Of a DNA stretch of 64,000 nucleotides, positions 23,485-45,548 are shown piece by piece. The notes under the pieces were generated by a model. The model had not been told where the DNA came from and did not search any database. It saw only the letters and a list, made by a program, of their open reading frames with translations. Source of the DNA: a virus; UHGV virus genome UHGV-0214148. The stretch is one strand, 5' to 3'. Position 1 is the stretch's first letter; each line of letters opens with the position of its first letter. The position numbers and the translations under genes are program-made.

Positions 23485-23535
23485 TATCTTAAATCCTTAA
23501 AATGAAAGTTAAAGAAATATCGGGGGAGGTTACCA

Positions 23536-23544
23536 CCCCCCCCC
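23536..23544. repeat. C9/G9 homopolymeric tract inside a GC hairpin
   Basis: Nine consecutive C on the plus strand in the intergenic region about 50 nt upstream of the 23484 start. Confidence 0.6.
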
Positions 23545-23551
23545 GAATCAA

Positions 23552-24082
23552 TTACTCTTTAGGCGCTGGTGCGGTGAAGCCATCCAGTTCACCTTCCAAA
23601 CCGTTCAGTGCTACTTTCTCAATAGCTGGAGGGGTAACTTTATACGTCGCAACAGTACCTGGCAGGAACTTCAAGTGGCCAGCCACAACCGTTACCACGT
23701 AAATGGTTTTGCCTTCTTCTTCACGAGAGATAGTTTGCAGGTCGTTTTCACCGAACTCGTCATCGGTGTACCCTTTCTCAGCCATGGCTGCGTTAACTTT
23801 CGCCAGGATTTTCGTCGGTGAATCGAAATCGGTAGTAGGTGCAGTTACTTCAACTTCACCAACGATGTCGCAGGAAAGACGAGTATAGTGGAATTCTTTC
23901 TCGCCTTTGAAGTTCTGGCTTTCTGCCTTGGCGGTCAGAGTAATTTTAGTGTTGCGGCCAGCTTCTCCGGTGAACTCAGCGACAGCACTAAAATTAACAT
24001 CATTTACAGTCAGCTTAGAAGCAGTTTGGTTGTTTTTAGCAATTACAATCTCGATAAGCTGCTGTTGAAAAGTTTTAGCCAT
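23552..24082 (-). CDS. hypothetical protein, paralogue family A (176 aa)
   Basis: Start moved to ATG 24082 (MAKTF...), which has a GAGGT SD and gives the same length as its paralogue; the track start is 24118. Confidence 0.55.
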   Translation of the reverse strand: MAKTFQQQLIEIVIAKNNQTASKLTVNDVNFSAVAEFTGEAGRNTKITLTAKAESQNFKGEKEFHYTRLSCDIVGEVEVTAPTTDFDSPTKILAKVNAAMAEKGYTDDEFGENDLQTISREEEGKTIYVVTVVAGHLKFLPGTVATYKVTPPAIEKVALNGLEGELDGFTAPAPKE

Positions 24083-24222
24083 TGTTTTTACCTCGTAAGT
24101 AGTATGGGTGGTTTGCATAGTATTGTTCGGATTATAGAAGTGTTGTTAATAGTTATGACAGACAGCAGTAAGGGTTGTCTGTAAAATTATTATTTTTTAA
24201 CTTTTTATAGAAGGGTGAAAAC

Positions 24223-24705
24223 ATGCTAAAACGTTTTCTATTTGTTGTAACTGCAGCACTTTCGTTGGCAAGCTGTGCCCTACAACCCACCGCTAACGGT
24301 CAATTCTCGACTGTACCCGTAGAGCCACACGACATGGTTATTTACACCTGTATGGGTGTAGAGCAAGATTTTGTAAATTATAAACCTGTCGTCAATTCGA
24401 CTAACCTAATGTTAGGCTCAGTAACTGTAATCGATACTGGTGCTAACTGGGTAGCCACCTGGCCAAATGGTAAGATTGAGTCACCCCAACTTTATAAAGA
24501 TCTATTAGGTAAAGTTAATGGAAATATCGATCCTATCACGGGACAACGTTACTACCGTGTAAATGGGTTACTTTCAAAAACACCAACATTTGCGTATTCT
24601 ACTTTAGAATATAAAACGGGTGATGGTAAAGGCATTACTTTCTTCCACTGTAAAGAAGGTGTAGCGTCTGACACTGGAACAATGCTCCATCCTGCGGAAC
24701 AATAA
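24223..24705 (+). CDS. lipoprotein (160 aa)
   Basis: Signal peptide ending in lipobox LASC; lone plus-strand gene with its own terminator among minus-strand genes. Confidence 0.65.
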   Translation: MLKRFLFVVTAALSLASCALQPTANGQFSTVPVEPHDMVIYTCMGVEQDFVNYKPVVNSTNLMLGSVTVIDTGANWVATWPNGKIESPQLYKDLLGKVNGNIDPITGQRYYRVNGLLSKTPTFAYSTLEYKTGDGKGITFFHCKEGVASDTGTMLHPAEQ

Positions 24706-24711
24706 AAACTA

Positions 24712-24735
24712 CCCTACTCCTTAACGGGAGTAGGG
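24712..24735 (+). terminator. intrinsic terminator
   Basis: 9-bp stem CCCTACTCC/GGAGTAGGG with a 6-nt loop. Confidence 0.6.
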
Positions 24736-24820
24736 TATAGTCATTTTAACCGCCAAATCGTGCGTAGAACGCATTCTAAGCGCCTTTATACAAAATAAGG
24801 TATAAACGCCTTAGAAATAA

Positions 24821-25336
24821 TTAAATCTCGACTAAGGCGCTCCAATCGATTGGTTTTTGCTTAACAACCTTCACAGTACCTCGATTTGGTGACCAGAAAG
24901 TAATGTTAGGCTGGTTACGAACGTCGATGTGTAACCAACTGATGTCACATTCAATAAAGTGAATGAACGGAAACTCGTCAGGGTTAGCAGCGATATAGTC
25001 GTGGACCTGTTTTACGGTGCTATCCAGCAACGTTGCATCAATGGCGTTACCGAATTTGTGTTGACTTCCTGAATCGGCGTAAAGCTGCAACGCACGTTGT
25101 TTATAACTACCGCCCTTAGGCTTTTCTTGATTAATAAAGAAGTCTAAGGTTCTTAGTCCGCGTTGTTGTGCAGCGGTTGAGTTAATGACCATTCTACCGA
25201 AACGATTACGAATCTGCTGTAGCGAAATCATTAACAACGGATTCATAAACCGAATTGCAGAATCGCCGTATTTGGCAATATAAGACTGTGGTACTAACTC
25301 TTTGAGTTTAAAGTTACTCGGATTTGGATGAAACAT
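24821..25336 (-). CDS. L-alanyl-D-glutamate peptidase-type endolysin (peptidase M15/LAS family)
   Basis: SQHKFGNAIDA (H-x6-D) and WLHID zinc-ligand motifs, as in T5-type endolysins. Confidence 0.6.
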   Translation of the reverse strand: MFHPNPSNFKLKELVPQSYIAKYGDSAIRFMNPLLMISLQQIRNRFGRMVINSTAAQQRGLRTLDFFINQEKPKGGSYKQRALQLYADSGSQHKFGNAIDATLLDSTVKQVHDYIAANPDEFPFIHFIECDISWLHIDVRNQPNITFWSPNRGTVKVVKQKPIDWSALVEI

Positions 25337-25988
25337 CTTCCCTCCCAGACAGAAAAGCCCGTTTGATGTTCAGGTATTTGACATTAACGGGACATTCTGT
25401 GGTGATATCAATACGTTCGTGGTCAGGGATTGCAGGTTCCTTAAACTCGCGAACGAATAAATAGTTTCGATTGTAATCTAACGTACGAAACGCGTTAGTG
25501 CTGTAGGATGGCTTTGCATTAGGATCTGCGTAGGCATCCCAGCCGAATTCAACAACGGCCTTATAAAATGTTTGGCAGATATAAGGCGAGATTTCCAACG
25601 ACTGCATAATACGCAGGAAAGTTAAGTCAGAGAACTCTTTATCGATGAAACGCGAAACGTTACCACCCGGTGTCATGGGATAGCTACGCTCCGTGTTGCA
25701 TTTTTGATAGAGTAAGTCGTGAATACAGGCCGCAGGTGCCCACGGTCCGTCAGGATGGAAAATTCCCTGGAGGTGTTCAGGAATTGACGCTAAATCAGTA
25801 ACGAACCCTTTCGGTGCTGTTAACCACAGTTGTGTGTCAGGCAATACACCCGTTAAATAAACCGCACGGTCTAAGTGTACGTGGTCGTGATATATCTCAC
25901 GTAACGTAAACGGATAATGGTAATCCTCCGTTAATACAAACCACTTATTGTCTAAACGTTTATATTGAAGCTTCTCCATTACCCACAC
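25314..25988 (-). CDS. DUF1353-like protein
   Basis: FVTDLASIP...HD..Y block resembles the DUF1353 signature (recalled from memory). Confidence 0.45.
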   Translation of the reverse strand: MWVMEKLQYKRLDNKWFVLTEDYHYPFTLREIYHDHVHLDRAVYLTGVLPDTQLWLTAPKGFVTDLASIPEHLQGIFHPDGPWAPAACIHDLLYQKCNTERSYPMTPGGNVSRFIDKEFSDLTFLRIMQSLEISPYICQTFYKAVVEFGWDAYADPNAKPSYSTNAFRTLDYNRNYLFVREFKEPAIPDHERIDITTECPVNVKYLNIKRAFLSGREDVSSKSE

Positions 25989-25994
25989 CTTCCC

Positions 25995-26099
25995 TTATAG
26001 AAACCAGAAAAATTCGTATCCACGCTTTTCGTCTTTACGTTTCCGCCCAGACGTTAACGCTTTCCACAATAGTGCTAAGAGTTTAGCAAACCAGTTCAT
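25995..26099 (-). CDS. possible 34-aa membrane peptide (MNWFAKLLALLWKALTSGRKRKDEKRGYEFFWFL)
   Basis: ATG overlaps the stop of the muramidase gene (ATGA); hydrophobic N-terminus then a basic tail; too short for the ORF track. Confidence 0.3.
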   Translation of the reverse strand: MNWFAKLLALLWKALTSGRKRKDEKRGYEFFWFL

Positions 26100-26686
26100 T
26101 TTACTAACCCCGCCTTCACTACATAATCCGGCATTTCCCTGAACACACGTGCATACCAACCGTAAGCGAATTTTTCATTCTTCTTACGCTTTTCGGAGAT
26201 TTCTGTGTAGTAAGTTACCTGGTGTGAGATTAACGCAAAGATTAAAATGCCTAATCCCTCGCCTTTACGGTAATTCAGATAAGCATTCAGAGCACCTAGC
26301 GTTTTAGGCCCCATACCGCCGTCGGTGTCAATATCTGCGTAAAGTTTCCCTTCGTTATTTAAAACGTTGAGAATACGTTGTAACGATTTCACACAATTAA
26401 CGCGGCCAGAGTTAATAGCAAAATCAAACATCCGGTCGGCGAGTATCGGCGAGATAGCGAAAATCTCATCGAGTTTAAGTTTCTTCCACCAACCACGATC
26501 GTAAATGTCAAACGCTTGCGCACGGGTCAGATCTTTCATTCTTCCTTTGTACCCGTATTCGCGTGCAGTTGTCAGTGTTACCCCGTGACAGGTTTCCCCA
26601 CCTTTATCGTCAGGGTCGTTCACGTACCCGCCTTCTAAATCTGTTTTCGAAGCAATAATACCTTCTTTAGTCCAACGTTCGGCCAT
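26096..26686 (-). CDS. GH108-family muramidase with C-terminal peptidoglycan-binding domain
   Basis: N-terminal EGGYVNDPDDKGGETCHGVT signature of GH108 lysozymes. Confidence 0.7.
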   Translation of the reverse strand: MAERWTKEGIIASKTDLEGGYVNDPDDKGGETCHGVTLTTAREYGYKGRMKDLTRAQAFDIYDRGWWKKLKLDEIFAISPILADRMFDFAINSGRVNCVKSLQRILNVLNNEGKLYADIDTDGGMGPKTLGALNAYLNYRKGEGLGILIFALISHQVTYYTEISEKRKKNEKFAYGWYARVFREMPDYVVKAGLVK

Positions 26687-26722
26687 TTTGTTTAACTCCT
26701 CTTTTACACAAAAAAAGAAAAG

Positions 26723-26743
26723 AGGGTGGGATTACCCCACCCT
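26723..26743 (-). terminator. intrinsic terminator
   Basis: Stem AGGGTGGG/CCCACCCT; U-run on the minus-strand transcript. Confidence 0.55.
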
Positions 26744-26757
26744 GTAGTTATTTCTTC

Positions 26758-27222
26758 TTAGCGAGATGGCTTGGCTGGCGCTGCGGCGACAGCCGGTTTA
26801 CGCGCAACGCGTACTGTAAAACCACCGACCCAGGTTAGGCACTCAGGACGGAAGAAAATACCGTGCTCGATTGCACTGCCGTCTAGCGGTAACGCACCAA
26901 CCTGCTCTACCCATACATCGTCTTCTGTAAGGGTTAAGCCATACTGCTCGTTAATTACAGGCAGCAAGTCCGCAGTCGTGGTTGCTGCCTCAACTAACAG
27001 TTTCGGCAATACGTTGAGGAAATACAAACCTGCATCAATGCGGTTATACTGGAACGTTTGCTTATTAACATAACCGAGATTCTTAACCGGCACAACCGTA
27101 ATTTCGGTGTTGTACGTACCGGTACTTACGACGGGCTCACCCAATGTGACTTTGGCGGTGTCGAGCTCGGCGTCTGGGTTAGCCTTTTTAATAAGGTCGA
27201 AGATAGTTTCTTGACTGGTCAT
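26758..27222 (-). CDS. hypothetical protein, distant A-type paralogue (154 aa)
   Basis: ORF length; N-terminal pattern resembles family A. Confidence 0.5.
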   Translation of the reverse strand: MTSQETIFDLIKKANPDAELDTAKVTLGEPVVSTGTYNTEITVVPVKNLGYVNKQTFQYNRIDAGLYFLNVLPKLLVEAATTTADLLPVINEQYGLTLTEDDVWVEQVGALPLDGSAIEHGIFFRPECLTWVGGFTVRVARKPAVAAAPAKPSR

Positions 27223-27235
27223 TACTGTAATCCTC

Positions 27236-28084
27236 TTAATCTAAGAATCCCGGTAAGACCGAATTAGTCTTGGCTAATTCAATCTTCGACTTCGGACGAT
27301 CGGTTCCGTTAAAGTGAATTAACAGTTTACCGGTCAGGTTAGAACACATACCGCTTAGGGCGAGTACCAGCACACGCGTGTACTTCGCATTTGCGCCTTC
27401 GAAACCTGCGGTAGGGCCATCGTAGATAACCTTAGCACCGAACAAGTTATTAGCAGCGTTCTTAGGTACGCTTACCCATTTCTCATCAACAACGTTAGTC
27501 AGTTTAGTAGCTAACTCTACTAAGTCTACGGTGCCGTTGATGGTAATTGGATCAAGGTAATCTTTTTCTGCGGTGAAGTCAATTGGGTAAGAATAAACCG
27601 CAGCGTTACCTTTCTTAGTGGACGGATACTCTACCAGGTTTTCTAATTGAGTAACAGGTAACAGTTTAGCCAGATCAATAGGGTCGCGTAGCGTGAGTGT
27701 CACCTCGCCACACCACTCGTAGGATTTCTCGTTAGCGGTAAGCTGATGGGTTTCACCTTCAACTTTCGCATCAACGATATCCGACGGTAGAATATTTAAA
27801 TCGTATTTTGCGTTGATTGCATTAAGCAAATCTGCAGCGGTTACAACACCGTCGTTACCGAATACCAACTCACCTGTTAGGTATTCGGGCAAATTACGAC
27901 GATGGTAAGTCACGGTTAAAGTAGTAGACTCATCGCCTTTGAGTTTAGAAGTCAGAACCACCTGGGTATCAACCCCAGTACCAGTAGGTTCGCCGATATC
28001 AACATCACTGAAAGTCAATGGCGGAACAATATTGTTTTCAGTGTTGATGAGTTTTAGCAGTTTCTGTTTTGACGTAAGAGACAT
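27236..28084 (-). CDS. hypothetical protein, distant A-type paralogue (282 aa)
   Basis: ORF length; N-terminal pattern resembles family A. Confidence 0.55.
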   Translation of the reverse strand: MSLTSKQKLLKLINTENNIVPPLTFSDVDIGEPTGTGVDTQVVLTSKLKGDESTTLTVTYHRRNLPEYLTGELVFGNDGVVTAADLLNAINAKYDLNILPSDIVDAKVEGETHQLTANEKSYEWCGEVTLTLRDPIDLAKLLPVTQLENLVEYPSTKKGNAAVYSYPIDFTAEKDYLDPITINGTVDLVELATKLTNVVDEKWVSVPKNAANNLFGAKVIYDGPTAGFEGANAKYTRVLVLALSGMCSNLTGKLLIHFNGTDRPKSKIELAKTNSVLPGFLD

Positions 28085-33510: not shown

Positions 33511-33519
33511 GGGGGGGGG
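33511..33519. repeat. G9/C9 homopolymeric tract, intergenic
   Basis: Nine consecutive G on the plus strand between the stop at 33534 and the start at 33484. Confidence 0.6.
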
Positions 33520-35752: not shown

Positions 35753-35765
35753 AAAAAATATAAAA

Positions 35766-35796
35766 ACCGTAGGATGGACTAAGTCCATCCTACGGT
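35766..35796 (-). terminator. intrinsic terminator
   Basis: 14-bp perfect stem ACCGTAGGATGGAC/GTCCATCCTACGGT with a 3-nt loop. Confidence 0.65.
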
Positions 35797-35801
35797 TTAA
35801 A

Positions 35802-37922
35802 TTAAATAACTACCCAGCTTTTGCCATCGGAACCAATCTGCATTAGCGTAATACTTTCATTGGTCTCAATGGGTTTGGCAAGACCTTCCGTCCCACTCTT
35901 TGGAGTGATGAGAACGTTTGAGTTTTCCGGTTTAACGATGATCTTACCAGCCTTATTTGCCACGATCTGTATATTTCTACCCACACTATATTCTAGATCA
36001 GGAATAGTAAGTTGGCCGCCACGGTTGGTGGCTGGGAAATACACATAAGACGACACATCTTCCTCAGATAACACTATACCACCAGAATCACGATTGACCG
36101 AGATCTCAAACTTAGAAATATCGATATCGTAGGCAGTAACTTTCGTAATATCTGTCAGAACCAATTCGTTCAAATCGGTATTAGCTGGACTGTTCGCCAG
36201 ATCAAACGGAGTGCCATTCTTGCCGTCAAGCACAGGTGTGACTTTGATTTTATTGTCACCCGGATAAATGATTTCAAGCGTATGCCAGTTATTATCGTAT
36301 GCACCAAAAGTTCCTAATTGCGCATTCTGCTTTTTATGATGCATCAGATAAAGATTCGTAGCGTCGGTCTGTAAGAAAAAAGACATTAGGTACGGGTTCG
36401 TCTTAGCCACACCAGCGTCAGCAAGTGTAGTACCAGAAGGTAGGTCGGACGCGGAAATACGCCAATAAAGTCCTAATCCGAAACGATCTGCTGCTAAATC
36501 ACCTTTTAGTCTAAAAGTAACGGTCAGACGTCCACCGTAACGTATCATGTCCGCAGCAGTCGCCATTGACTTAGTTACATTCCAAGGTTTCATCGTTACA
36601 GCCTTTCTTAATTCGACGAAATGCCCGTTTCCATCCTCAGTTTTTTGCACGGTTACGTTACAATCAACGATATTGTTCCAACCTTGCCCTTTCAGGGAAC
36701 CATCTCCACGACGACCGTTATAACCAACAGACTCTACTAATGGGGTATAGCTTCTTACCACATTCATATTGTCTTTGGAGCTCTTAGTGTCGTTCTTCGT
36801 CAGGAACATTGCACCAATCGCTGTTCTTGATAATATCTCGGCAGCTATTCTCTCTGAGATAATACCGCGTCGTGCCCAAGAACTGAAATGACTATTCCTT
36901 TCTGCAGACGTCCAGTTATCAGAACTACGGGAGGCAGCACCGTAATAGGCAGCACCAGTGATATTAGGATCGTCAGTGGGATCATTAGTCGGAACATGTT
37001 GGCCATTATCGTCGTACATGAATGGAACAAAAAAGATATTTTTTTGTTCGTTGTTACGATAATTACCGTATATGGTTTCATATTGAGCAGGATATTTTTC
37101 CTTCCAATAATAGGTAGTGTCCCCACAGATCCATGGTACTTCGGCGGTGGCGTACTCGGGCATCTGAGAGAGATGGTCAGAGAGATCAGTTCGGAAACGC
37201 TCTACCATTGCGTTAAATAACGCTGGTTGTTGTGCGTATTGTACTTTAGTCAGATCATACTCTCCCTGCATCCACACTACAGCCAAGAGTTTATTTTTAG
37301 GATTAACTTCCAGGGCTTTTTTGGTCCGGCTAACTAAATCTTTATAAAGCGGTTTGTCCACCCCCCATACCGATGACGCCGCAGAGGCTCCTGTGGCTTC
37401 ATCGAAGGTACCTTCTGCACCACCCGTGAAAGCAGAACCGCCGCGTGCGCAGGGTACTAGTAAGATACCGGCGTTCTTAGGAATATACGGGAGAAGACGC
37501 TTCGCGATATGAAGACCTTGACCCACACATCCGTATTCACCTTTGTCTAAATTGGCATTGGGATGCGAGTATTTGGACATATCTTGCACGTCGTGCAGAC
37601 AGTGATCCGCTGGAATGACGTCGTTATATTTACAATCAGCCCCATTAGGCGTTACCTTCGCACGGCGCGCCATCTGTTTAATTCGCGGATCGGGAGCGTC
37701 CAACGTCGCCGGTAGAGGCAACCCTTCACCATAACTCATCGCATTAGATTGCCCGGCTATAGGAATCACGAAGTAATACTCCGGCTCCGTCGTGCCCTGA
37801 AGTTTTGCAATATCAATTTTATATTCTTTTTCTTCCTTAGAAAGAAGAACTAACGCACCTTTGAGATCGCCAGAGAAATTGTCGAGTTCATGGATACGTT
37901 TCTTTCCAATTGGCTGACTCAT
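35802..37922 (-). CDS. tailspike-like protein with sialate-O-acetylesterase (SASA/SGNH) domain (706 aa)
   Basis: GQSNAMSYG and WMQGEYD blocks typical of the SASA esterase family; N-terminal roughly 35 aa resemble the N-terminus of the 1479-aa fibre. Confidence 0.7.
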   Translation of the reverse strand: MSQPIGKKRIHELDNFSGDLKGALVLLSKEEKEYKIDIAKLQGTTEPEYYFVIPIAGQSNAMSYGEGLPLPATLDAPDPRIKQMARRAKVTPNGADCKYNDVIPADHCLHDVQDMSKYSHPNANLDKGEYGCVGQGLHIAKRLLPYIPKNAGILLVPCARGGSAFTGGAEGTFDEATGASAASSVWGVDKPLYKDLVSRTKKALEVNPKNKLLAVVWMQGEYDLTKVQYAQQPALFNAMVERFRTDLSDHLSQMPEYATAEVPWICGDTTYYWKEKYPAQYETIYGNYRNNEQKNIFFVPFMYDDNGQHVPTNDPTDDPNITGAAYYGAASRSSDNWTSAERNSHFSSWARRGIISERIAAEILSRTAIGAMFLTKNDTKSSKDNMNVVRSYTPLVESVGYNGRRGDGSLKGQGWNNIVDCNVTVQKTEDGNGHFVELRKAVTMKPWNVTKSMATAADMIRYGGRLTVTFRLKGDLAADRFGLGLYWRISASDLPSGTTLADAGVAKTNPYLMSFFLQTDATNLYLMHHKKQNAQLGTFGAYDNNWHTLEIIYPGDNKIKVTPVLDGKNGTPFDLANSPANTDLNELVLTDITKVTAYDIDISKFEISVNRDSGGIVLSEEDVSSYVYFPATNRGGQLTIPDLEYSVGRNIQIVANKAGKIIVKPENSNVLITPKSGTEGLAKPIETNESITLMQIGSDGKSWVVI

Positions 37923-37925
37923 CTA

Positions 37926-38438
37926 CTACTCTCCAAAAGTTAAGATTTTATTGTCAAACGTCAACACGACAGAATCATCACCGATGCCACACGGTGTTTC
38001 ATCTGGGCCGAAAACCACCACGGAGAACTGTCCTTTATAAGCGATGGAATTTGGAGCGATGCTAAGCGTTACCGCGTCTTTACCTACCGTGAACGACTGG
38101 TCGGTTAAATCGTCGGTTTGTAAGTTAGCACCACAAACGGCATTGACGGATTCGATAAGATCGTGTGCATTAAACCCTTCACCTATTACTTTTACCAGAA
38201 TAGGTTGTTGGTTTAACCACCGCTCTGCGGTTAAACGGTTGTAGTAGATTTGCAACGTTCTGTTTCCAGGACGTTTAATCTTTACAATGGCAGTGGAGTC
38301 ACGATCCATTTCATCACTGGTTTTTACGTCACTGACTTCAACCTCGTTCTCTTGCAAGTCAAGTTGGAGGTCATGGTTAACCAGTGAAATAACCATGTTA
38401 AGTGAAGTTAGTGATAAATCTGGTGTGAATTTTTCCAC
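37926..38438 (-). CDS. hypothetical protein, paralogue family B (170 aa)
   Basis: GTG start with TAGGAGGT SD; shares PDLSL...NHD...YY.RL...CG.NLQ..DL and C-terminal CGIGDD.VLTF blocks with 44527..45087. Confidence 0.55.
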   Translation of the reverse strand: MEKFTPDLSLTSLNMVISLVNHDLQLDLQENEVEVSDVKTSDEMDRDSTAIVKIKRPGNRTLQIYYNRLTAERWLNQQPILVKVIGEGFNAHDLIESVNAVCGANLQTDDLTDQSFTVGKDAVTLSIAPNSIAYKGQFSVVVFGPDETPCGIGDDSVVLTFDNKILTFGE

Positions 38439-38492
38439 GTATGTTTACCTCCTAAGGTTGGGGGTCATAAAATATTGACTAAAAAACATTCA

Positions 38493-38501
38493 CCCCCCCC
38501 C
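38493..38501. repeat. C9/G9 homopolymeric tract, intergenic
   Basis: Nine consecutive C on the plus strand about 55 nt upstream of the family-B gene start at 38438. Confidence 0.6.
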
Positions 38502-38535
38502 ACGATTATTTTCAACCGCTTTCAGTTGAAAATAA

Positions 38536-38979
38536 TTAGCTAATTCTCAAATCACGCAGTGCGCCTGTCGATTTCATCGCGTTTTGGAACGCGCCACTGA
38601 TGTTATTAGTCCAGTAATAATGCTGTCCGTTAATAACCTGCTGATAGGTCAGTGCGCAGGTGTTACCACCTAAATTTACGGTAATGTTAGAGGCTCTGCC
38701 TCCTTGTAAGTAAACCGCTAAAGTAGGCTTTGCGTTGGCAACTATCGTCGTTAACTGTAACTCAATACCTACTAAAGTTCCCACCCCGCAGTTACCCGCG
38801 TTTTGAATGGTTCCCTGATTTTTCTGGTTTAACGGCCAGCTTGGTCCTACCGCGCCCCATTTCTTACCTAAAGAATCGCTATATGCAGCGGTTGCAATTT
38901 TACAGCCCATAGATCTTCCCACCATTTGACTCATCATAAAAGGTCTACCCAATCCTAATTTACTACCAGCAGCGCTCAT
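38536..38979 (-). CDS. adhesin-like Gly-rich protein, paralogue family C (147 aa as an intact ORF)
   Basis: Paralogue of 39298..39843; the conserved N-terminal extension and its SD/ATG lie upstream in another frame (see 38980..39044). Confidence 0.55.
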   Translation of the reverse strand: MSAAGSKLGLGRPFMMSQMVGRSMGCKIATAAYSDSLGKKWGAVGPSWPLNQKNQGTIQNAGNCGVGTLVGIELQLTTIVANAKPTLAVYLQGGRASNITVNLGGNTCALTYQQVINGQHYYWTNNISGAFQNAMKSTGALRDLRIS

Positions 38980-39044
38980 CCATTGTTCGCCCGTTTCGTT
39001 CTTAGCCGAAGAACCGACCCACGAACCGGTTACCCCCCCCCCAT
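38980..39044 (-). other. out-of-frame N-terminal extension of the family-C gene with its own SD and ATG, interrupted at a G-tract
   Basis: AGGAG 7 nt upstream of ATG 39044..39042. As sequenced the frame reads M-G-G-G-stop; one extra G, or two fewer, gives MGGGVTGSWVGSSAKNETGEQWMSAAG, which matches the paralogue's MGVASGWVGSSAKAVTGQEWMSVAG. Confidence 0.55.
39033..39042. repeat. C10/G10 homopolymeric tract at the start codon of the family-C gene
   Basis: Ten consecutive C on the plus strand; the last C is part of the minus-strand ATG. Confidence 0.7.
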
Positions 39045-39056
39045 CGCGATCTCCTG

Positions 39057-39287
39057 TTAAGATTTTCTACATGTTATTGAATCGAAAGCACCACGCCCAA
39101 CCCAACGCCAATTATAATGATGATCAGCTTTATAAAGTGTGTATCTGCCCTGCTTTTTTACGTCGAAAATATTGATCGTAGTCTCTTCATTACCCAGCTT
39201 AGCTGTGCCGTAACATACAGGTTCGGGTAGTTGTTGACATCCACTTACTGTAAGCAATGCGAAACCCAGTAAAACTTTTCTTAACAT
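39057..39287 (-). CDS. small lipoprotein (76 aa)
   Basis: Signal peptide with lipobox TVSGC; mature part about 58 aa; lies between the two family-C genes. Confidence 0.6.
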   Translation of the reverse strand: MLRKVLLGFALLTVSGCQQLPEPVCYGTAKLGNEETTINIFDVKKQGRYTLYKADHHYNWRWVGRGAFDSITCRKS

Positions 39288-39297
39288 CTTTCTGTCC

Positions 39298-39843
39298 TTA
39301 GACTACACTTATTGAAATTGTTGCACCGTTCTGATTAAATAACCAGTTGGTTGCCGTCTTAGCCTCATAGCGCCGGACGCCGTTACTGTAAGAGTACGGT
39401 AGAAAAGTAATCTTCGTTCCGTTAAACGAAAGCGTAATATTCTGATTTGGTCCATTAGTTAGGGCCATGTAGATAATACCAGTATTTTGTACTTGGCTAA
39501 GATGTGTGACGCTACAACCCAAGATCGAACCTGACACCGAACCGGCCGCATTTTGTGTTTGCACACGATTCGATACTGTAGAACCAGCACCCGTTGTTGT
39601 AGAGTTGTTCGAATACCCCCCATACGTATTTGTAATAGGAACCCACTGCGTGTTCGTAGCCTGCACCAAAACAACATAGGTTGATCGGCCTACAACGAGT
39701 TTAAGATCCTCTACGCTACGCCCGACCATCTGCGACATGTTAAATGGTGTGCTCAGTTTAAGCTTATTACCTGCCACACTCATCCACTCCTGACCGGTTA
39801 CTGCCTTTGCTGAGCTTCCAACCCAGCCGGATGCTACCCCCAT
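39298..39843 (-). CDS. adhesin-like Gly/Ser/Thr-rich protein, paralogue family C (181 aa)
   Basis: ORF length; paralogy with 38536..38979 including the N-terminal extension. Confidence 0.6.
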   Translation of the reverse strand: MGVASGWVGSSAKAVTGQEWMSVAGNKLKLSTPFNMSQMVGRSVEDLKLVVGRSTYVVLVQATNTQWVPITNTYGGYSNNSTTTGAGSTVSNRVQTQNAAGSVSGSILGCSVTHLSQVQNTGIIYMALTNGPNQNITLSFNGTKITFLPYSYSNGVRRYEAKTATNWLFNQNGATISISVV

Positions 39844-39861
39844 AAATCCTCCAAACTAAAA

Positions 39862-39881
39862 TAGGGGGATTACTCCCCCTA
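39862..39881 (-). terminator. intrinsic terminator
   Basis: Stem TAGGGGGA/TCCCCCTA. Confidence 0.5.
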
Positions 39882-39884
39882 TCT

Positions 39885-42800
39885 TTAATTCCCCTTGAGT
39901 TCTTTAAGCTCTTGGCGAAGAGTTTTCATGCCTTCTACTAACAACGCAATAACACCATTGTAATTTAGACGTAAACGTTTTTCGCCTGAAATGGCATCAT
40001 CATCCTCAGACACAAGCTCAGGTAACGCTTCTAGAGCGTCCTGAGCAATTAGACCTACAGAAGTCTGCCAGCCGTCGTCAGGATGCTGAATTTCGTACAA
40101 ATAACCGGTTAGTAACTCTAACCGATCCAAAGCCTTATCCAGCTTCACCAGATTACGTTTGTTACGACGGTCAGAACGAATCTGTACGTCGTTAAACGAA
40201 CCGTTACCGTTGCCAGTAACGTTATGTCCAAAGTTTACTTGGCCGTTAGAATTATTAAAAGACAACGGGCGTAATCCGTTCCAGGAACCCGCTGCGGCTT
40301 GTCCGGCGTCGGTTACTAAGAAATAGGTATTGGCACCGTCGTTACGTAAAATAAAACCGTAGGTACCGTAAGCGATTCGAAAATCAGGGTATTTAGTGGC
40401 CAATTTACCATTAACGGTTAAATCACCGCCTACAGTACCGCCCCCTGACGGTAACGCGCCCACTTCCGCAGCAGTTGGCTTGTTTCTCGTATTGTAAGCA
40501 CGACGCCAGCCTGGTGAGTATCCATCGCCGTTAAATACGTAGATAAACTCCGCATTAGTGAGTGCTCCGCCGACGCTCGTCGTTGTGGCGGTCGTTATAC
40601 GGATCGTGTAGTTGTTTGTGCTGTTGCCGTTACTAATGACTTCTATAACGGCCCCAGCTAACGGAATGACACCACAACCCGTCTCGCTGTGAGGTATGGA
40701 CGCACTGGCGGCATAAGCCCACGCACAGCGAGCAACCCACGATCTTGTGGTAAATGCGCCGTTATTTTTCAATAACGTCACTAGCTGTGCTGTAGTTATT
40801 GCACCGCCATTAGCGCCAGTTTCTAACCAACCACTAGGTGATGCCGGACAACCTATTTCGGCTGGCCCTAACGATATATTTCTAGTGCCATCAAACGCAA
40901 TACCATTGATGGTTCTTGCGGTTTGCAACTTTGTTGCCGTGGCTGCGTTTCCGGTGGTCGACTGATTCCCTGTTTGGTTTACTCCAGGTAAGTTGATGTC
41001 TTTAGTACCATCAAAAGCTACGCCACCTATATTTCGCGCAGTCTGGAGCTTAGTCGCAGTCGCAGCATTCCCCGTCGTCGATTGGTTACCGGTTTGGTTC
41101 ACACCGGGCAGACTAATGTCTTGCGAACCATCAAAGTTAATACCACCGATCTTACGTGGCGTTTGTAACTTAGTAGCGGTCGCTGCATTACCTGTCGTAT
41201 TCTGGTTACCTTGCTGGTTAACCCCCGGTAAATTGATATCCCCAGTACCGTCAAAGGTAACGCCCCCGATTCTGCGAGCAGTTTTCAGTTTCGTCGCGGT
41301 AGCAGCGTTACCAGTAGTATCTTGATTACCGGTGGTATTTACACCAGGAATACTATCACGGGCAGTATAAACTTGTGCCCAATCTGACCACGGCGCATCC
41401 GCTGTATCGCGTCGACTACGAATATAAACGGGTGCGTGCGCACCACTCGTGCCCGACCAACCGATTAACAGTTCACCTTCACCTAGCGCAGTAGAACCGC
41501 CCAAATGCAGCAAGTTACCATAAGCGGTCGGATAACCGTTATTGTAAACTTCGTACATCTGAATACCGGGTGTACCTTTGTTTGAACCGGTTAGTGCAGT
41601 AACCCGACCACGACCTACCAGGGTGTTGATATTGATGTCAGCAGAACCATCGAATCTCACACCGTTAATATTTCTGGCAGTTTGAAGTTTAGTGGCTGTC
41701 CCGGCATTACCCGTGGTGTTTTGATTACCCTGTTGGTTAACACCTGGGAGGTTAATATCAGCACTACCGTCGAAAGCGACTCCACCAATTCTACGTGCCG
41801 TCTTTAATTTCGTTGCGGTTGAAGCATTGCCTGTTAACTCGCCTGCTAACCCTTTTGCAAAGGTCTGTTTTTCTGCCCAGGTGTGTGCTGCATTCAATAC
41901 AGGCATCTGTCGTGGTGTAATCGTACGACTACCTTTCTCACCAGCGATACGTACTGCAAAGAATCGATAGTTGGCAGTAGACACCGTACTACGCCAAACC
42001 AACATACTCCGGCCTGATGTAGCGCCATCTGATGGACCAACCAGAATGCTAACTAAGTTACCGTCAATAACACCCCAATCCATTCCCGTAGGAATGTTTT
42101 TCATGGTGTTAAGCGGCGTACAGATTAACTCACCCGGTTTAAAGTCATAGGTTTGCCAGTCTAAAGGATCAACATTCGCACGTTCACCGCCGATACCTAA
42201 TACCAGCGGAAGCGAATACGATGTGAAAACCTCACGCCAATCGCTCCAAGCGTTACCCGTACGGATACGTTGGAATTTACGACCTTTAGTTTCTGTACCC
42301 GTACCGTATGTAGTATAATTCTGTTCGACCCCTGTACCGTCTAAGCGTAAGGTAACTTCACAAACGCCTAATATGGTTTCACCAGAAGAACCGGTAAGTG
42401 GACCGTTAGTTGCTTCACCAGTGACACTGAAACGTCCCGGTTTAACGAGATCGTTAAAATTGGCTTTAAAGAAAGCACCGTCAGTCTGATAACCAACCTG
42501 AATCCAATCTTCCCATTGCGGGTTTGATGAATCCCACGTTGCGGTCAAACCACGAACATACATCGTACCACGACGTGTGGTGTATCGCTGCAACCGTCCG
42601 AAAAGACCACCTTCCATTACTTCTAGTACGCCTTGCGCACCGCCACCTTCTTCAGGGTAATGTCTGCTAAAAACAGCCAGCGAACTGCTTGAGTTTCGCC
42701 AGTTACCCATATGCTCAGCGCCACCCAAACTGTTCAAGTCTATAGCGGTAGATAATGGACGTACACCAGTAGTTACCATTCTCCACGGCGACCAGGGTCC

Positions 42801-44324
42801 ATTGGCACCATTCCACTCGCCACTCAGCATACGGTTGTACACGTTACCATTACGACAGGTAAAACGCTGTGCACCACTGTAATTACCGGCTTTATACACT
42901 TCCAGATAACCGACTGCACCGTCTTCTGGGAAATGTTTTGCCATCGACGCATTGGTTGACGTCGACTTAGCCCACGTTCCTGTGTAATTGGCATCAGGAG
43001 CAAATGTGTTAATATCAGCATCTACAGGCATTTCGCCACGGAAACGTAGATAGGTGTCAGGAGACAGACCGATATTGCGAGCAAACGTTTCTTTATCTGG
43101 GATATCAGCGCCGTTAGAGTTTTTCTGTAACGCGCCATTCGCTTTATCTACAGTGGCTTTTAATCCCAAGAAATTGATGATATCCGCAGTTGACCCTTTC
43201 GCTAACAAGGATCTGGCCGTTTCTGTAAAATCCGTTAATCCGACTTTATTACTGCCAGTGAAATACATGAGTTTATTTGCCGCTGTGGTGACTGCGGCAA
43301 TGGCGGTGAGCAACGGACTGAGAGGTTGTTTCTGCGCAAGTTCCCCAGTAATCGTTGTTGCGAAGTTAGGGTCATTACCTAACGCCTCAGCTAATTCCGC
43401 TAAGGTATTTAACGTCTCGGGTGAAGAACCAACCAGTTCCGCAATCGCGTCACGCACCCAGGCCGTTGTGGAGATGCTCGTGTCGTTCGAGTCCTTCGGG
43501 GGTGTTGGGGATGACGGTTTACCCGTAAAATTCGGCGAATGTTTATTGGCTTTTAACTGTAATTCGTCATTCAGCTGTTTAACCGTGGACGGTGTGGCGG
43601 CCTCAGTCACGGATTCGCTAGTCAGTGTATCGTTAAGTTTAACGATACCTTTACCGGTCGTACTAGCGTCGATTAAGCCCTGCGCAGCGATTTTCTCCGC
43701 ACGTAAGGCAGCTGACTCCGAGCGTGTTGCTGCGCCTTCTGAACTTTCTTTATCTTTCGCGACCTGTGCAGCAATCTTCTCCACTGCGCCCTTACTGGCC
43801 TCAACTGAAGCCGCAGTATTCTCGACACCGGTAGCCGTCTGTTGGACTTGTCCGGCCTGTTGCGTAACCGTTTCTGCTTTCTTAGTTACATCAGCCGCTG
43901 CAGCCGTCACCGATTGTTCGCTTGTAGCGACAGCTTGAGCTTTCTCATTTACCGACTGTAATACAGTATCTACGGCAGTTTTCGCGGCTAAAACTTCAGC
44001 GTGTTTTTTGTTAACCTCAGCAGTTTTAGTGGCAACGGTTCCCGCTTGCTCGCTAACGGTGGAAGCTAACGTGTCAGTTTGTTGCTTCGCGGTTTCTGCT
44101 AAGTCTTTTGCTTGTGTGGCTTCTGTTGCAGACTGTTGTGATTTGGCCGCAGCCGTTTGTGCGTCAGCAACCGCGTTTCTGACGGTGTCAATATCCGCAA
44201 CAATCTCGCGGACAGGTAACTGATAATCCCTTTCGTCTTTCGAAAAAAGTAAAACGCCTTCACCGATATCCCCGGTGTATGGACGTAAATCGTGTAAACG
44301 AATTTTCTTTACCGCTTTAGCCAT
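39885..44324 (-). CDS. long tail fibre with coiled-coil shaft, tandem fibre repeats and C-terminal intramolecular chaperone domain (1479 aa)
   Basis: Ala/Gln/Thr-rich coiled coil; about six copies of a roughly 40-aa repeat (NTTGNAATATKLQTAR.IGGV.FDG..DINLPGVNQ.GNQ); C-terminal SDRRNKRNL...LTGYLYE resembles peptidase-S74 chaperone domains. Confidence 0.85.
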   Translation of the reverse strand: MAKAVKKIRLHDLRPYTGDIGEGVLLFSKDERDYQLPVREIVADIDTVRNAVADAQTAAAKSQQSATEATQAKDLAETAKQQTDTLASTVSEQAGTVATKTAEVNKKHAEVLAAKTAVDTVLQSVNEKAQAVATSEQSVTAAAADVTKKAETVTQQAGQVQQTATGVENTAASVEASKGAVEKIAAQVAKDKESSEGAATRSESAALRAEKIAAQGLIDASTTGKGIVKLNDTLTSESVTEAATPSTVKQLNDELQLKANKHSPNFTGKPSSPTPPKDSNDTSISTTAWVRDAIAELVGSSPETLNTLAELAEALGNDPNFATTITGELAQKQPLSPLLTAIAAVTTAANKLMYFTGSNKVGLTDFTETARSLLAKGSTADIINFLGLKATVDKANGALQKNSNGADIPDKETFARNIGLSPDTYLRFRGEMPVDADINTFAPDANYTGTWAKSTSTNASMAKHFPEDGAVGYLEVYKAGNYSGAQRFTCRNGNVYNRMLSGEWNGANGPWSPWRMVTTGVRPLSTAIDLNSLGGAEHMGNWRNSSSSLAVFSRHYPEEGGGAQGVLEVMEGGLFGRLQRYTTRRGTMYVRGLTATWDSSNPQWEDWIQVGYQTDGAFFKANFNDLVKPGRFSVTGEATNGPLTGSSGETILGVCEVTLRLDGTGVEQNYTTYGTGTETKGRKFQRIRTGNAWSDWREVFTSYSLPLVLGIGGERANVDPLDWQTYDFKPGELICTPLNTMKNIPTGMDWGVIDGNLVSILVGPSDGATSGRSMLVWRSTVSTANYRFFAVRIAGEKGSRTITPRQMPVLNAAHTWAEKQTFAKGLAGELTGNASTATKLKTARRIGGVAFDGSADINLPGVNQQGNQNTTGNAGTATKLQTARNINGVRFDGSADININTLVGRGRVTALTGSNKGTPGIQMYEVYNNGYPTAYGNLLHLGGSTALGEGELLIGWSGTSGAHAPVYIRSRRDTADAPWSDWAQVYTARDSIPGVNTTGNQDTTGNAATATKLKTARRIGGVTFDGTGDINLPGVNQQGNQNTTGNAATATKLQTPRKIGGINFDGSQDISLPGVNQTGNQSTTGNAATATKLQTARNIGGVAFDGTKDINLPGVNQTGNQSTTGNAATATKLQTARTINGIAFDGTRNISLGPAEIGCPASPSGWLETGANGGAITTAQLVTLLKNNGAFTTRSWVARCAWAYAASASIPHSETGCGVIPLAGAVIEVISNGNSTNNYTIRITTATTTSVGGALTNAEFIYVFNGDGYSPGWRRAYNTRNKPTAAEVGALPSGGGTVGGDLTVNGKLATKYPDFRIAYGTYGFILRNDGANTYFLVTDAGQAAAGSWNGLRPLSFNNSNGQVNFGHNVTGNGNGSFNDVQIRSDRRNKRNLVKLDKALDRLELLTGYLYEIQHPDDGWQTSVGLIAQDALEALPELVSEDDDAISGEKRLRLNYNGVIALLVEGMKTLRQELKELKGN
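40850..41340 (-). repeat. tandem roughly 120-nt coding repeats (fibre repeat units)
   Basis: Near-identical DNA units seen directly; further copies lie around 41640-41830. Confidence 0.6.
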
Positions 44325-44526
44325 GATATTTAATTCTCTATCGGGAGCTAAAAGATCTGAGGAAGTGTTTTACCCCTCAACATTTTTATAAGCGGATTAT
44401 TATACTGGTTTTAATCCATCATCTTCTAACGTGAAAGTGATGCCCAACTCCGCGCTTCATGATTTGGGATTGTTAAGTTTTGATAAAAGTTTGCTTTGAC
44501 CTCCATTACCGGTAAAACGGTCAAGT

Positions 44527-45087
44527 TCATGTAGCCGGGTTTTCTTCAGCTGTGTCGTCATCTGGAACCTCAAAGGTAAGAACGGCATCATCACCAATAC
44601 AGAAGATCGCATCATCTTCGTTTGCTAATGCTCGTTCGGTTGTATCGAATAACGTTACCATAAACGCATTCATCCACGCAGGAGAATCGTCAGCAACGTT
44701 AACAGCAATGGGTTCGTTACCTAAGGTGATATCTGCAGCACGTAAATCTTCGGGTTGTAAGTTCGTTCCGCAGAATTCATTTACAACACCTAAAATGTCA
44801 CGAAGGTTGTCTTCAGTACCGTCTAACGAAATCAAAATAGGTTCAGACGCTAACACTTCGTCCGCATCCAAACGGTCGTAATAAACAACCACAGAAGCAC
44901 CATCAGGTTTCCTGATTTTTGTAATCTCTGTCAGTGTGTTACGACGCGAAGTGGTCGGGGACGGGTTTGCCATAGTGTTGCTAATACGGATTTCGTTTAG
45001 AGACAACCGTGAACCGTTATCGTGGTTGATTAAAGCGACCACTAATTCGGCTGAGGCCAGACTTAAATCAGGTACGTAAGTAGTCAC
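44527..45087 (-). CDS. hypothetical protein, paralogue family B (186 aa)
   Basis: Start reassigned to GTG 45087 (GGGAGG 5 nt upstream); the track ATG 45153 lies upstream of terminator 45121-45144, and homology to 37926..38438 begins right after the GTG. Confidence 0.55.
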   Translation of the reverse strand: MTTYVPDLSLASAELVVALINHDNGSRLSLNEIRISNTMANPSPTTSRRNTLTEITKIRKPDGASVVVYYDRLDADEVLASEPILISLDGTEDNLRDILGVVNEFCGTNLQPEDLRAADITLGNEPIAVNVADDSPAWMNAFMVTLFDTTERALANEDDAIFCIGDDAVLTFEVPDDDTAEENPAT

Positions 45088-45120
45088 TAAAACCTCCCAG
45101 ATCAAAAAAATAAAAACACC

Positions 45121-45144
45121 TACCGCCCATAGAATCGGGCGGTA
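45121..45144 (-). terminator. intrinsic terminator
   Basis: Stem TACCGCCC/GGGCGGTA followed on the minus transcript by a U-rich run. Confidence 0.55.
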
Positions 45145-45173
45145 GACAGTCATTTTACAGCTAAAAAATCAAA

Positions 45174-45548
45174 TCAGTCCGTTAATTCTCCACACAACTC
45201 GACGTCAATACCGAACATCAATCCCACCTCTTGAAGCTTGTTCGCCAATAAGTGGCGATGACAAAACTTACCTGGCGGACAATAACACATCAAAACCAAA
45301 TCTTCGTGTCTAAGTAATGACACTAAAGTTTCGGCGTCGGTATCTAACAGTCGTTCGAGTTTGTACAAATACTTTATCGTGTACTCGCGTTCAGCAGCTG
45401 CATCCTTTGCAGAGTTTTTATACGCCATTAAGAAATCCCAGTCGGGGGCGAGTTCCTTTCGCCCCGACTTCACAGTGATATCCACTACGTGAAACCCTTT
45501 CTGCTTAGCTAACCGCCACTTAGCGAGTTGTAACGTCCAGATACGCAT
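45174..45548 (-). CDS. DUF488-like protein (124 aa)
   Basis: LMCYCPPGKFCHRHLLANKL resembles the DUF488 C.C...CHR signature (recalled from memory). Confidence 0.45.
   Translation of the reverse strand: MRIWTLQLAKWRLAKQKGFHVVDITVKSGRKELAPDWDFLMAYKNSAKDAAAEREYTIKYLYKLERLLDTDAETLVSLLRHEDLVLMCYCPPGKFCHRHLLANKLQEVGLMFGIDVELCGELTD

What the first reader, a model, noticed from the sequence alone, without database searches (positions are those of the whole stretch)
37926..45153. Family-B paralogues precede both the giant fibre and the esterase tailspike
Two paralogous proteins of 170-186 aa (conserved PDLSL...NHD...YY.RL...CG.NLQ..DL... and C-terminal CIGDD.VLTF) each sit immediately upstream of a different receptor-binding protein gene. 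They are candidates for fibre-specific adaptor or assembly proteins. The track start of the upstream copy (45153) is wrong: a terminator hairpin (45121-45144) and a GGGAGG SD place the true start at GTG 45087.
Basis: partly seen in the sequence, partly recalled or inferred. Interest (0 to 1): 0.45.

Follow-up and report, generated by a model that had tools for sequence, protein, structure and literature searches.

The report
Short DUF7941 proteins heading fibre cassettes
Two small paralogous genes of an uncultured ~225-kb SPN3US-like (nucleus-forming) jumbo phage belong to the known baseplate-associated family DUF7941 and sit at the head of exchangeable tail-fibre gene cassettes, so they are probably docking pieces for accessory receptor-binding proteins; this is a useful refinement of a known family, not a new kind of system.

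Summary
B1 (44527..45087, minus strand, 186 aa) and B2 (37926..38438, 170 aa) are paralogues (34% identity, E 2e-32). The GTG 45087 start is correct: the terminator, the Shine-Dalgarno site and the GTG are all conserved in relatives.

B1 and B2 form a short subtype: the N-terminal domain plus an acidic, strand-like tail ending in DDxVLTF. In four chimallivirus genera or lineages this subtype lies directly upstream of receptor-binding genes that share a 41-aa N-terminal anchor. SPN3US has one cassette, this lineage two, and Eowyn four.

"Fibre-specific" is not supported. B1's ancestral partners, the gp123/gp124 homologues, were deleted here, leaving a scar at 44400..44561. Counts of B genes and anchor-bearing genes are not 1:1. 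B2 persists intact where its downstream gene is lost.

The most likely role is a baseplate-side docking subunit for anchor-bearing receptor-binding proteins. This is inferred, not shown. SPN3US gp122 was not detected in wild-type virions, so an assembly role stays open.

The parts
44527..45087 (-). B1: short DUF7941 protein, 186 aa from the GTG start. It is the counterpart of SPN3US gp122.
45088..45153 (-). Spurious 5' extension of the B1 ORF (22 codons, from ATG 45153).
   Evidence: It contains the terminator hairpin and its T-run. No homologue has this extension.
45104..45148 (-). Intrinsic terminator (13-pair stem plus T-run) that closes the upstream DUF488 unit.
   Evidence: The sequence is conserved upstream of B1 in L003, L004 and L016.
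45093..45098 (-). Shine-Dalgarno site GGGAGG, 5 nt upstream of GTG 45087.
   Evidence: GGAGG is conserved in relatives.
44400..44561 (-). Deletion scar: about the first 20 codons of a gp123-like anchor gene joined to about the last 17 codons of a gp124-like tail-protein gene. It overlaps the 3' end of B1.
   Evidence: tblastn of the L003 153-aa protein, aa 1-39, hits 44561..44448 at 59% identity, E 9e-6. The anchor HMM hits it at E 6e-9. The alignment of relatives shows a different reading frame in each, and the C-terminal ..AELDITFTLEDDGLKPV* matches the end of SPN3US gp124.
39885..44324 (-). Giant tail fibre, 1479 aa. The N-terminal 41-aa anchor is encoded at 44202..44324.
   Evidence: Pfam Phage_fiber_2, Gp34_trimer and Peptidase_S74. 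Anchor HMM E 2e-22. The anchor is 85-100% conserved across relatives where aa 42-250 fall to 62-70%.
39298..39843 (-). gp38-like adhesin, 181 aa.
   Evidence: Pfam Gp38_N E 2e-20 and phrog_1121.
39057..39287 (-). Cor-like superinfection-exclusion lipoprotein. It was absent from the homologous position in all 15 relatives' loci that cover it.
   Evidence: phrog_1119 E 1e-25. Absent from the corresponding region of L003, L004/L005, L010, L011, L012, L014 and L020-L024.
38536..39044 (-). Second gp38-like adhesin gene. A poly-G tract directly after ATG 39044 puts it out of frame.
38439..38535 (-). Two hairpins upstream of B2, including a G9 tract. The element is conserved in relatives.
   Evidence: Folding z-score -4.2. 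The G tract is 9-12 long in relatives.
37926..38438 (-). B2: short DUF7941 protein, 170 aa, GTG start with AGGAGG upstream.
35802..37922 (-). Esterase tailspike, 706 aa. The N-terminal 41-aa anchor is encoded at 37800..37922.
   Evidence: Pfam SASA and DUF6645. Anchor HMM E 4e-22. The N-terminal 41 aa align to the fibre N-terminus, E 5e-6.
35764..35798 (-). Strong terminator that closes the cluster running from B1 to the esterase gene.
   Evidence: 16-pair stem followed by a T-run.
26758..28084 (-). Two further DUF7941 genes: 27236..28084 (282 aa, full length) and 26758..27222 (154 aa, N-terminal domain only).
   Evidence: Pfam E 2e-52 and 9e-30.
22954..24118 (-). Two further, divergent DUF7941 genes: 23552..24118 (188 aa) and 22954..23484 (176 aa).
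   Evidence: Pfam E 9e-10 and 5e-9.

Best explanation
B1 and B2 are short, stand-alone members of the chimallivirus family DUF7941, which is the same as SPN3US paralog family B. B1 is the counterpart of SPN3US gp122. Each consists of the ~150-aa N-terminal domain seen in phiKZ gp127 plus a 20-35-aa acidic, strand-like C-terminal tail with the pattern ..DDxhhxh.DDxVLTF. They are late genes inside one terminator-bounded tail-fibre cluster.

Most likely they are minor tail components that sit on or next to the DUF7941/gp139-type outer rim of the baseplate. There they would provide the docking site through which accessory receptor-binding proteins are mounted. All of those proteins carry the same ~41-aa N-terminal anchor (M..VKK.RLHEL..(F/Y).G....LL.SK...EY.LP...I). 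The receptor-binding parts behind the anchor are swapped freely, while the B gene and the anchor are kept.

Shown: family membership, fold, conserved gene order in four chimallivirus genera or lineages, purifying selection, and the start codon. Inferred: virion location and a physical contact between B and the anchor.
For: Family and fold.
- Pfam PF25613 scores are 68 and 52 bits against a cut-off of 27.
- A profile search hits PDB 9XQD chain 0, phiKZ gp127, at E 1e-13.
- In phiKZ, gp127 ends the band of gp139 dimers on the outer peripheral platform, which that paper calls the fibre attachment platform (PMC13250141).

Gene order.
- A B gene directly precedes an anchor-bearing gene in SPN3US, Asesino and Lh1B.
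- The same holds for both cassettes in this lineage.
- Eowyn has four B genes interleaved with five anchor-bearing receptor-binding genes.
- tblastn with the 41-aa anchor finds one place per SPN3US-like genome, always abutting the B gene.
- In the window the anchor occurs only at the fibre, the esterase and the scar.

Constraint and modularity.
- dN/dS is 0.08-0.20, including after loss of the downstream genes.
- The fibre anchor is more conserved than the sequence that follows it.
- Residues after about 47 of the anchor proteins match the C-terminal parts of unrelated fibre families.
- In other phages the same N-terminal module is fused directly to propeller-type (BNR/Asp-box-like) or Ig-like regions. 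This makes the split arrangement, B plus anchor-bearing protein, a plausible non-covalent equivalent.
Against: No direct evidence of a B-anchor contact exists. Co-folding could not be run.

SPN3US gp122 was not detected by mass spectrometry in wild-type virions, whereas gp123 (7 spectra) and gp124 (73 spectra) were. gp122 was seen only in particles of one mutant.

The other SPN3US family-B proteins were classed as head proteins because they appear in tailless particles.

The numbers of B genes and anchor-bearing genes are not 1:1, and orphan B2 genes persist.

Anchor types do not track the B type.

Profile comparison shows no similarity between the anchor and any part of DUF7941.
Confidence: 0.5

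Rival explanations
1. B1 and B2 are ordinary units or caps of the DUF7941 head-to-tail filament network (the 'fibre cloud' of the Goslar model). They do not contact the neighbouring receptor-binding proteins. They lie next to fibre genes only because late host-recognition genes cluster together.
For: Goslar gp23, which has the N-terminal domain and linker but no C-terminal domain, has a comparable layout and is predicted to oligomerise. Purified gp22 forms filaments. B genes persist after loss of the downstream gene. Counts of B genes and anchor-bearing genes are not 1:1. The window has four more DUF7941 genes that could be partners.
Against: The B subtype has its own conserved tail and is found only at the head of anchor-gene cassettes, often with overlapping or abutting start and stop codons. 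Full-length DUF7941 arrays lie elsewhere, for example beside the portal gene in SA002 and Proteus phage 10. SPN3US gp122 is at most very scarce in virions, unlike the abundant filament-type members gp141 and gp160.
Confidence: 0.22
2. B1 and B2 are non-structural assembly or attachment factors. They would hold or deliver the N-terminal anchors of the receptor-binding proteins during tail assembly and would not remain in the virion.
For: SPN3US gp122 was not detected in wild-type virions, although the small neighbour gp123 was. B genes are translationally coupled to the downstream gene.
Against: The fold and family are those of a protein modelled in a solved baseplate. There is no similarity to known fibre chaperone families. 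Fibre chaperones are usually encoded downstream of their fibre (established knowledge, not tested here). The giant fibre already carries its own Peptidase_S74 intramolecular chaperone domain and gp38-like partners. gp122 was seen in particles of one SPN3US mutant.
Confidence: 0.18
3. B1 and B2 are head or ejection proteins, like the other members of SPN3US paralog family B, and have nothing to do with fibres.
For: Twenty SPN3US family-B proteins were found in tailless particles and annotated as head proteins. Family B equals DUF7941.
Against: gp122 was not among the proteins detected. The B genes sit inside a terminator-bounded fibre cluster. The only solved relative is in the baseplate. The gene order with anchor-bearing fibre genes is conserved across genera.
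Confidence: 0.05

Closest known systems
phiKZ gp127 (and gp126), DUF7941, in the outer peripheral baseplate (PDB 9XQD; Nat Commun 2026, PMC13250141)
   Same: Same Pfam family and the same N-terminal fold. gp127 caps the band of gp139 dimers on the platform that carries the fibres.
   Different: gp127 is 290 aa, with a linker and a C-terminal domain. B1 and B2 stop after a short acidic tail. The phiKZ genes lie near the portal gene rather than at the head of fibre cassettes. The phiKZ fibres (the gp131 family) use a different N-terminal domain.
Goslar gp22/gp23 DUF7941 filament proteins (bioRxiv 10.64898/2026.04.21.720040)
   Same: gp23 also has the N-terminal domain and linker without a C-terminal domain. 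The family is proposed to sit on the peripheral baseplate and to serve host recognition. Some members are fused to carbohydrate-binding or hydrolase domains.
   Different: gp22 and gp23 are present at hundreds to thousands of copies per virion. The SPN3US counterpart of B was not detected in wild-type virions. No separate anchor-bearing receptor-binding partners are described there. Goslar gave no tblastn hit to B1 or B2.
SPN3US gp122-gp123-gp124 (Ali et al. 2017, PMC5694885)
   Same: Direct counterparts: gp122 is 45% identical to B1, and the gene order is DUF488, gp122, gp123 (anchor protein), gp124. gp122 was already suspected to belong to paralog family B.
   Different: SPN3US has one cassette. 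The window lineage has two, has lost gp123/gp124, and has added a T-even-like giant fibre with gp38-like adhesins and an esterase spike behind the same anchor.
Branched receptor-binding systems of other phages (G7C gp66/gp63.1, CBA120 tailspikes, phi92). This comparison is from my own knowledge and was not tested here.
   Same: Several receptor-binding proteins are mounted through short conserved N-terminal attachment modules, while the distal domains are exchanged. An SGNH/SASA-type esterase spike serves as an accessory receptor-binding protein.
   Different: There is no sequence or fold relation. Fold searches with the B models return only phiKZ gp127. In those systems the attachment site is on another receptor-binding protein, not on a separate small protein.

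Membership tests
Pfam DUF7941 (PF25613), equal to SPN3US paralog family B | Significant match to the family profile, above the curated cut-off. | tested here: met
   B1 scores 68.4 bits and B2 51.9 bits against a cut-off of 27. SPN3US gp138, gp141, gp143, gp145, gp154 and gp160 hit the same model.
Pfam DUF7941 (PF25613), equal to SPN3US paralog family B | N-terminal globular domain with the fold of phiKZ gp127 residues 1-150. | tested here: met
Pfam DUF7941 (PF25613), equal to SPN3US paralog family B | Full architecture: N-terminal domain, linker and C-terminal globular domain. | tested here: not met
   Only profile positions 3-153 of 276 are matched. B1 and B2 end after a 20-35-aa tail. This is the truncated layout also seen in Goslar gp23 and the window's 154-aa paralogue.
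Pfam DUF7941 (PF25613), equal to SPN3US paralog family B | Encoded by a member of the Chimalliviridae. | tested here: met
   The closest phages are Seoulvirus, Erskinevirus and Eowynvirus, and flanking gene order is shared with the first two. Seoulvirus and Eowynvirus are filed under Chimalliviridae; Erskinevirus was not looked up. Relatives lie on 221-226-kb contigs.
Pfam DUF7941 (PF25613), equal to SPN3US paralog family B | Head-to-tail oligomerisation or filament formation. | not testable with these tools
   No multimer prediction is available.
Pfam DUF7941 (PF25613), equal to SPN3US paralog family B | Presence in the virion at the peripheral baseplate. | not testable with these tools
   Literature only. 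phiKZ gp127 is modelled in the baseplate. SPN3US gp122 was not detected in wild-type virions.
Tail-fibre assembly chaperones (T4 gp38/gp57A type, Tfa type) | Sequence similarity to a known chaperone family. | tested here: not met
   Pfam and PHROG give only DUF7941 and 'virion structural protein' families. The gp38-like genes are separate ORFs downstream of the fibre.
Tail-fibre assembly chaperones (T4 gp38/gp57A type, Tfa type) | Gene located downstream of the fibre gene it serves. | tested here: not met
   B genes lie upstream of the anchor-bearing genes in every locus examined.
Receptor-binding-protein adaptor or docking proteins (a functional class, not a sequence family) | Physical bridge between the baseplate and a receptor-binding protein. 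| not testable with these tools
   Only indirect support is available: conserved adjacency to anchor-bearing genes and fold identity with a baseplate-rim protein.

The most novel reading that the evidence does not exclude
The gp122-type short DUF7941 proteins are dedicated sockets. Their C-terminal acidic tail would plug into the DUF7941/gp139 rim of the chimallivirus baseplate, and their N-terminal domain would hold the 41-aa anchor of a trimeric receptor-binding protein. Whole units of socket, anchor and receptor-binding domain could then be duplicated (one in SPN3US, two here, four in Eowyn), and the distal domains exchanged with fibres of unrelated phages. This would be the rule by which nucleus-forming jumbo phages widen or change host range.
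Probability: 0.35. Interest if true: 0.6.

Novelty: new member of a known kind. Interest (0 to 1): 0.4.

Why it matters
DUF7941 proteins were tied to the chimallivirus baseplate and to host recognition only in 2026. Their role is still argued: SPN3US proteomics places them in the head, while phiKZ and Goslar structural work places them at the baseplate rim.

This work picks out a distinct short subtype that always heads cassettes of receptor-binding genes sharing one N-terminal anchor. That gives a concrete, testable hypothesis for how accessory fibres and spikes are mounted on these large baseplates. It also gives an annotation rule for finding receptor-binding genes in jumbo phages: a short DUF7941 gene followed by a gene that starts with M..VKK.RLHEL....

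In addition, it corrects one start codon, and it shows that the 'pairing' of B1 with the giant fibre is a by-product of a deletion.

Tried and rejected
1. DNA search of the whole cluster against 50,697 phage records. It found only a 135-bp match, so no close isolate exists in that collection.
2. Single-sequence search of B1 against PDB sequences found nothing. A profile was needed.
3. Idea: the anchor mimics the DUF7941 linker or the C-terminal L..TNG.LDGF motif of other paralogues. hhalign probability was 0.1-0.2%, and no anchor-like segment occurs inside any DUF7941 protein. There is no support, so I dropped it.
4. Idea: each B type has its own anchor type. Pairwise identities do not separate the anchors after B2 from the gp123-type anchors. 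The esterase anchor is 43-53% identical to the gp123-type anchors and 46-53% identical to the other post-B2 anchors. Not supported.
5. Pseudo-complex prediction using the in-frame read-through from B2 into the esterase N-terminus.
6. Looking for a natural fusion of B, anchor and receptor-binding domain. Long proteins with the N-terminal module exist, but they lack the anchor.
7. DUF7941 hits in Salmonella phage SA002 and Proteus phage 10. These are full-length arrays beside the portal gene, not B-type cassettes.
8. The 34-codon ORF in the scar as a possible functional mini-protein. Its reading frame differs between relatives, so it is a pseudogene remnant.
Full report
**What is in the window.** All genes of the region lie on the minus strand. 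In order of transcription they are:
- a DUF488 gene (45174..45548);
- B1;
- a 202-nt spacer;
- a 1479-aa fibre (39885..44324) with Phage_fiber_2, Gp34_trimer and Peptidase_S74 domains;
- a gp38-like adhesin (39298..39843);
- a Cor-like lipoprotein (39057..39287);
- a second gp38-like gene;
- B2 (37926..38438);
- a 706-aa SASA/DUF6645 esterase (35802..37922), whose ATG directly follows the TAG TAG that ends B2.

Strong terminator-like hairpins bracket the cluster at 45148..45117 and 35798..35764.

**Check of the observation.** B1 and B2 are true paralogues: 34% identity over 169 aa, E 2e-32.

The start-codon claim is right.
- The hairpin CTACCGCCC-N8-GGGCGGTAG and its T-run lie inside the 208-aa ORF.
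- GGGAGG lies 5 nt upstream of GTG 45087.
- The same hairpin, GGAGG and GTG precede B1 in relatives, which carry a different upstream gene.
- In L003 the GTG is the first possible start.
- Homologous proteins are 186-188 aa long.

**What the proteins are.** Both match Pfam DUF7941 (PF25613; 68 and 52 bits against a cut-off of 27) and phrog_2935/1037 'virion structural protein'.

The closest isolated phages are SPN3US-like Seoulvirus, Erwinia phage Asesino (Erskinevirus) and, more distantly, Klebsiella phage Eowyn. Identity is about 45% to the first two and about 30% to Eowyn. Seoulvirus and Eowynvirus are Chimalliviridae.

The SPN3US counterpart is gp122. It lies after a DUF488 gene and before gp123 and gp124.

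I confirmed that the 'paralog family B' of Ali et al. 2017 is DUF7941: gp138, gp141, gp143, gp145, gp154 and gp160 all hit the model. That paper already suspected gp122 of being a member.

The window holds four more DUF7941 genes: 27236..28084, 26758..27222, 23552..24118 and 22954..23484. The family here is therefore six genes, not two.

A search of 1.84 billion representative proteins finds only 391 relatives at E <= 1e-3. They include stand-alone proteins of about 150-190 aa and forms of about 280-360 aa. They also include long proteins in which the module is fused to propeller-type (BNR/Asp-box-like) or Ig-like regions.

**The cassette.** The first 41 residues of the fibre and the esterase are homologous to each other and to the N-terminus of SPN3US gp123. 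An HMM of this anchor hits only N-termini of genes in this cluster. In the window it hits the fibre, the esterase and one remnant.

Among isolated phages, the anchor occurs once per SPN3US-like genome and always abuts the B gene. Lh1B carries a divergent version in the same place.

In Eowyn, four B-type genes (gp228, gp229, gp234, gp238) are interleaved with five receptor-binding genes (gp230, gp233, gp235, gp237, gp239). Each of the five starts with the same kind of anchor.

Behind the anchor, the proteins match C-terminal parts of unrelated fibre families. The fibre's anchor is better conserved (85-100%) than the 200 residues that follow it (62-70% in divergent relatives).

The recurring unit is therefore a short DUF7941 gene, then a gene with the anchor, then exchangeable distal domains.

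**Why 'fibre-specific' fails.** Relatives on 221-226-kb contigs from Salmonella, Shigella and E. coli read sets and from metagenomes show what this cluster looks like elsewhere.
- Where the region is intact, B1 is followed by a 153-aa anchor protein and a 1001-aa tail protein, as with gp123/gp124. The giant fibre comes only after those.
- In the window and several relatives the pair is deleted. What remains is about the first 20 codons of the gp123-like gene joined to about the last 17 codons of the gp124-like gene, at 44400..44561.
- The remnant's reading frame differs between relatives, so it is a scar and not a gene.
- B1 has nonetheless stayed under purifying selection. dN/dS is 0.08 and 0.20 against two relatives with the same deletion (L013, L014).
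- Downstream of B2 the partner varies: the esterase, a 206-aa anchor protein, a 133-aa anchor protein, another anchor gene, or nothing.
- In L003 and L012 the downstream gene is missing, and L012 retains fragments of the lost anchor gene. B2 is intact in both, with dN/dS about 0.1.
- Genomes have 1-2 B genes (four in Eowyn) but 1-5 anchor-bearing genes.
- Anchor sequences do not sort by the preceding B type.

**Mechanism.** Published structures place a DUF7941 protein, phiKZ gp127, at the outer end of the band of gp139 dimers on the fibre-attachment platform. The Goslar preprint proposes head-to-tail chains of DUF7941 modules in which the linker of one protomer docks on the N-terminal domain of the next.

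B1 and B2 have the acceptor domain plus a conserved acidic, strand-like tail that could act as the donor. I therefore think they most likely act as small docking subunits that couple anchor-bearing receptor-binding proteins to the baseplate rim. This last step is inference.

Three points argue against it.
- SPN3US gp122 was not detected in wild-type virions, while gp123 and gp124 were. Those two are not flagged as head proteins.
- SPN3US family-B proteins were classed as head proteins because they appear in tailless particles.
- I found no sequence relation between the anchor and any DUF7941 segment.

The rivals are a filament unit independent of the fibres, a non-structural assembly factor, and a head protein. 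They are listed with the results that would separate them.

**Novelty.** The proteins are new members of a known family and direct counterparts of SPN3US gp122. The papers I could search do not describe the short subtype, its tail motif, or its constant position ahead of anchor-bearing receptor-binding genes. That is a modest but testable addition.

Noticed in passing
window 44400..44561 (minus strand): A deletion scar lies between B1 and the fibre gene. It joins the start of a gp123-like anchor gene to the end of a gp124-like 1001-aa tail-protein gene. The same deletion occurs in several relatives, with a different reading frame in each.
   Followed up: yes
window 39033..39044 (minus strand): The second gp38-like adhesin gene starts ATG + G9 + TAACCGGTTCGTGGG... 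The tract length puts the ATG out of frame with the adhesin frame; 7 or 10 G after the ATG would be in frame. Relative L010 has G7 in frame. This could be phase variation by slippage or a homopolymer sequencing error.
   Followed up: partly
window 38493..38501, 23536..23544 and 33511..33519; loci L003-L022: G9 tracts followed by a C-rich partner form hairpins upstream of B2 and upstream of the 176-aa DUF7941 gene. The tract upstream of B2 is 9-12 G long in relatives. A similar 'atattG10taa' element precedes the fibre gene in relatives but is interrupted in the window. The function is unknown; it may be a late regulatory element.
   Followed up: partly
window 39057..39287: A Cor-like superinfection-exclusion lipoprotein gene is inserted between the two gp38-like adhesin genes. 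It was absent from the homologous position in all 15 relatives' loci that cover it.
   Followed up: partly
window 22954..28084: Four more DUF7941 genes are present (282, 154, 188 and 176 aa). The 282-, 188- and 176-aa proteins, and the unrelated 505-aa P0075, end in a shared motif L..(T)N(G).L(D/P)GF.
   Followed up: partly
window 38887..39021: The only near-identical DNA in 50,697 phage records is a 135-bp stretch, 96% identical, shared with the 109-kb Escherichia phage CMS-2020a. It covers the start of the second gp38-like gene, which suggests exchange of adhesin modules.
   Followed up: no
whole window; loci L010-L016 and L020-L024: The window comes from an un-isolated chimallivirus lineage with ~221-226-kb genomes that recurs in Shigella flexneri, Salmonella enterica and E. 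coli assemblies and in metagenomes. B2 is 100% identical to a protein on a 225,507-bp contig.
   Followed up: partly
literature: PMC5694885 versus bioRxiv 10.64898/2026.04.21.720040 and PMC13250141: The published views conflict. SPN3US family B, which I confirmed to be DUF7941, was assigned to the head because it is present in tailless particles. The phiKZ and Goslar work places DUF7941 at the baseplate rim.
   Followed up: partly
L019 (Klebsiella phage Eowyn, NC_070650, 206072..219594): Four B-type DUF7941 genes are interleaved with five receptor-binding or depolymerase genes, all of which carry the same N-terminal anchor. This is the clearest independent copy of the cassette.
   Followed up: yes
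window 10909..16095 (plus strand): A 1728-aa ORF matches phrog_7449 end to end. Its size and its position next to the paired radical-SAM genes mirror SPN3US gp168, a phiKZ gp131-like baseplate/fibre candidate. The phage may therefore also carry the standard chimallivirus fibres alongside the accessory cluster. No direct comparison with gp168 was run.
   Followed up: no
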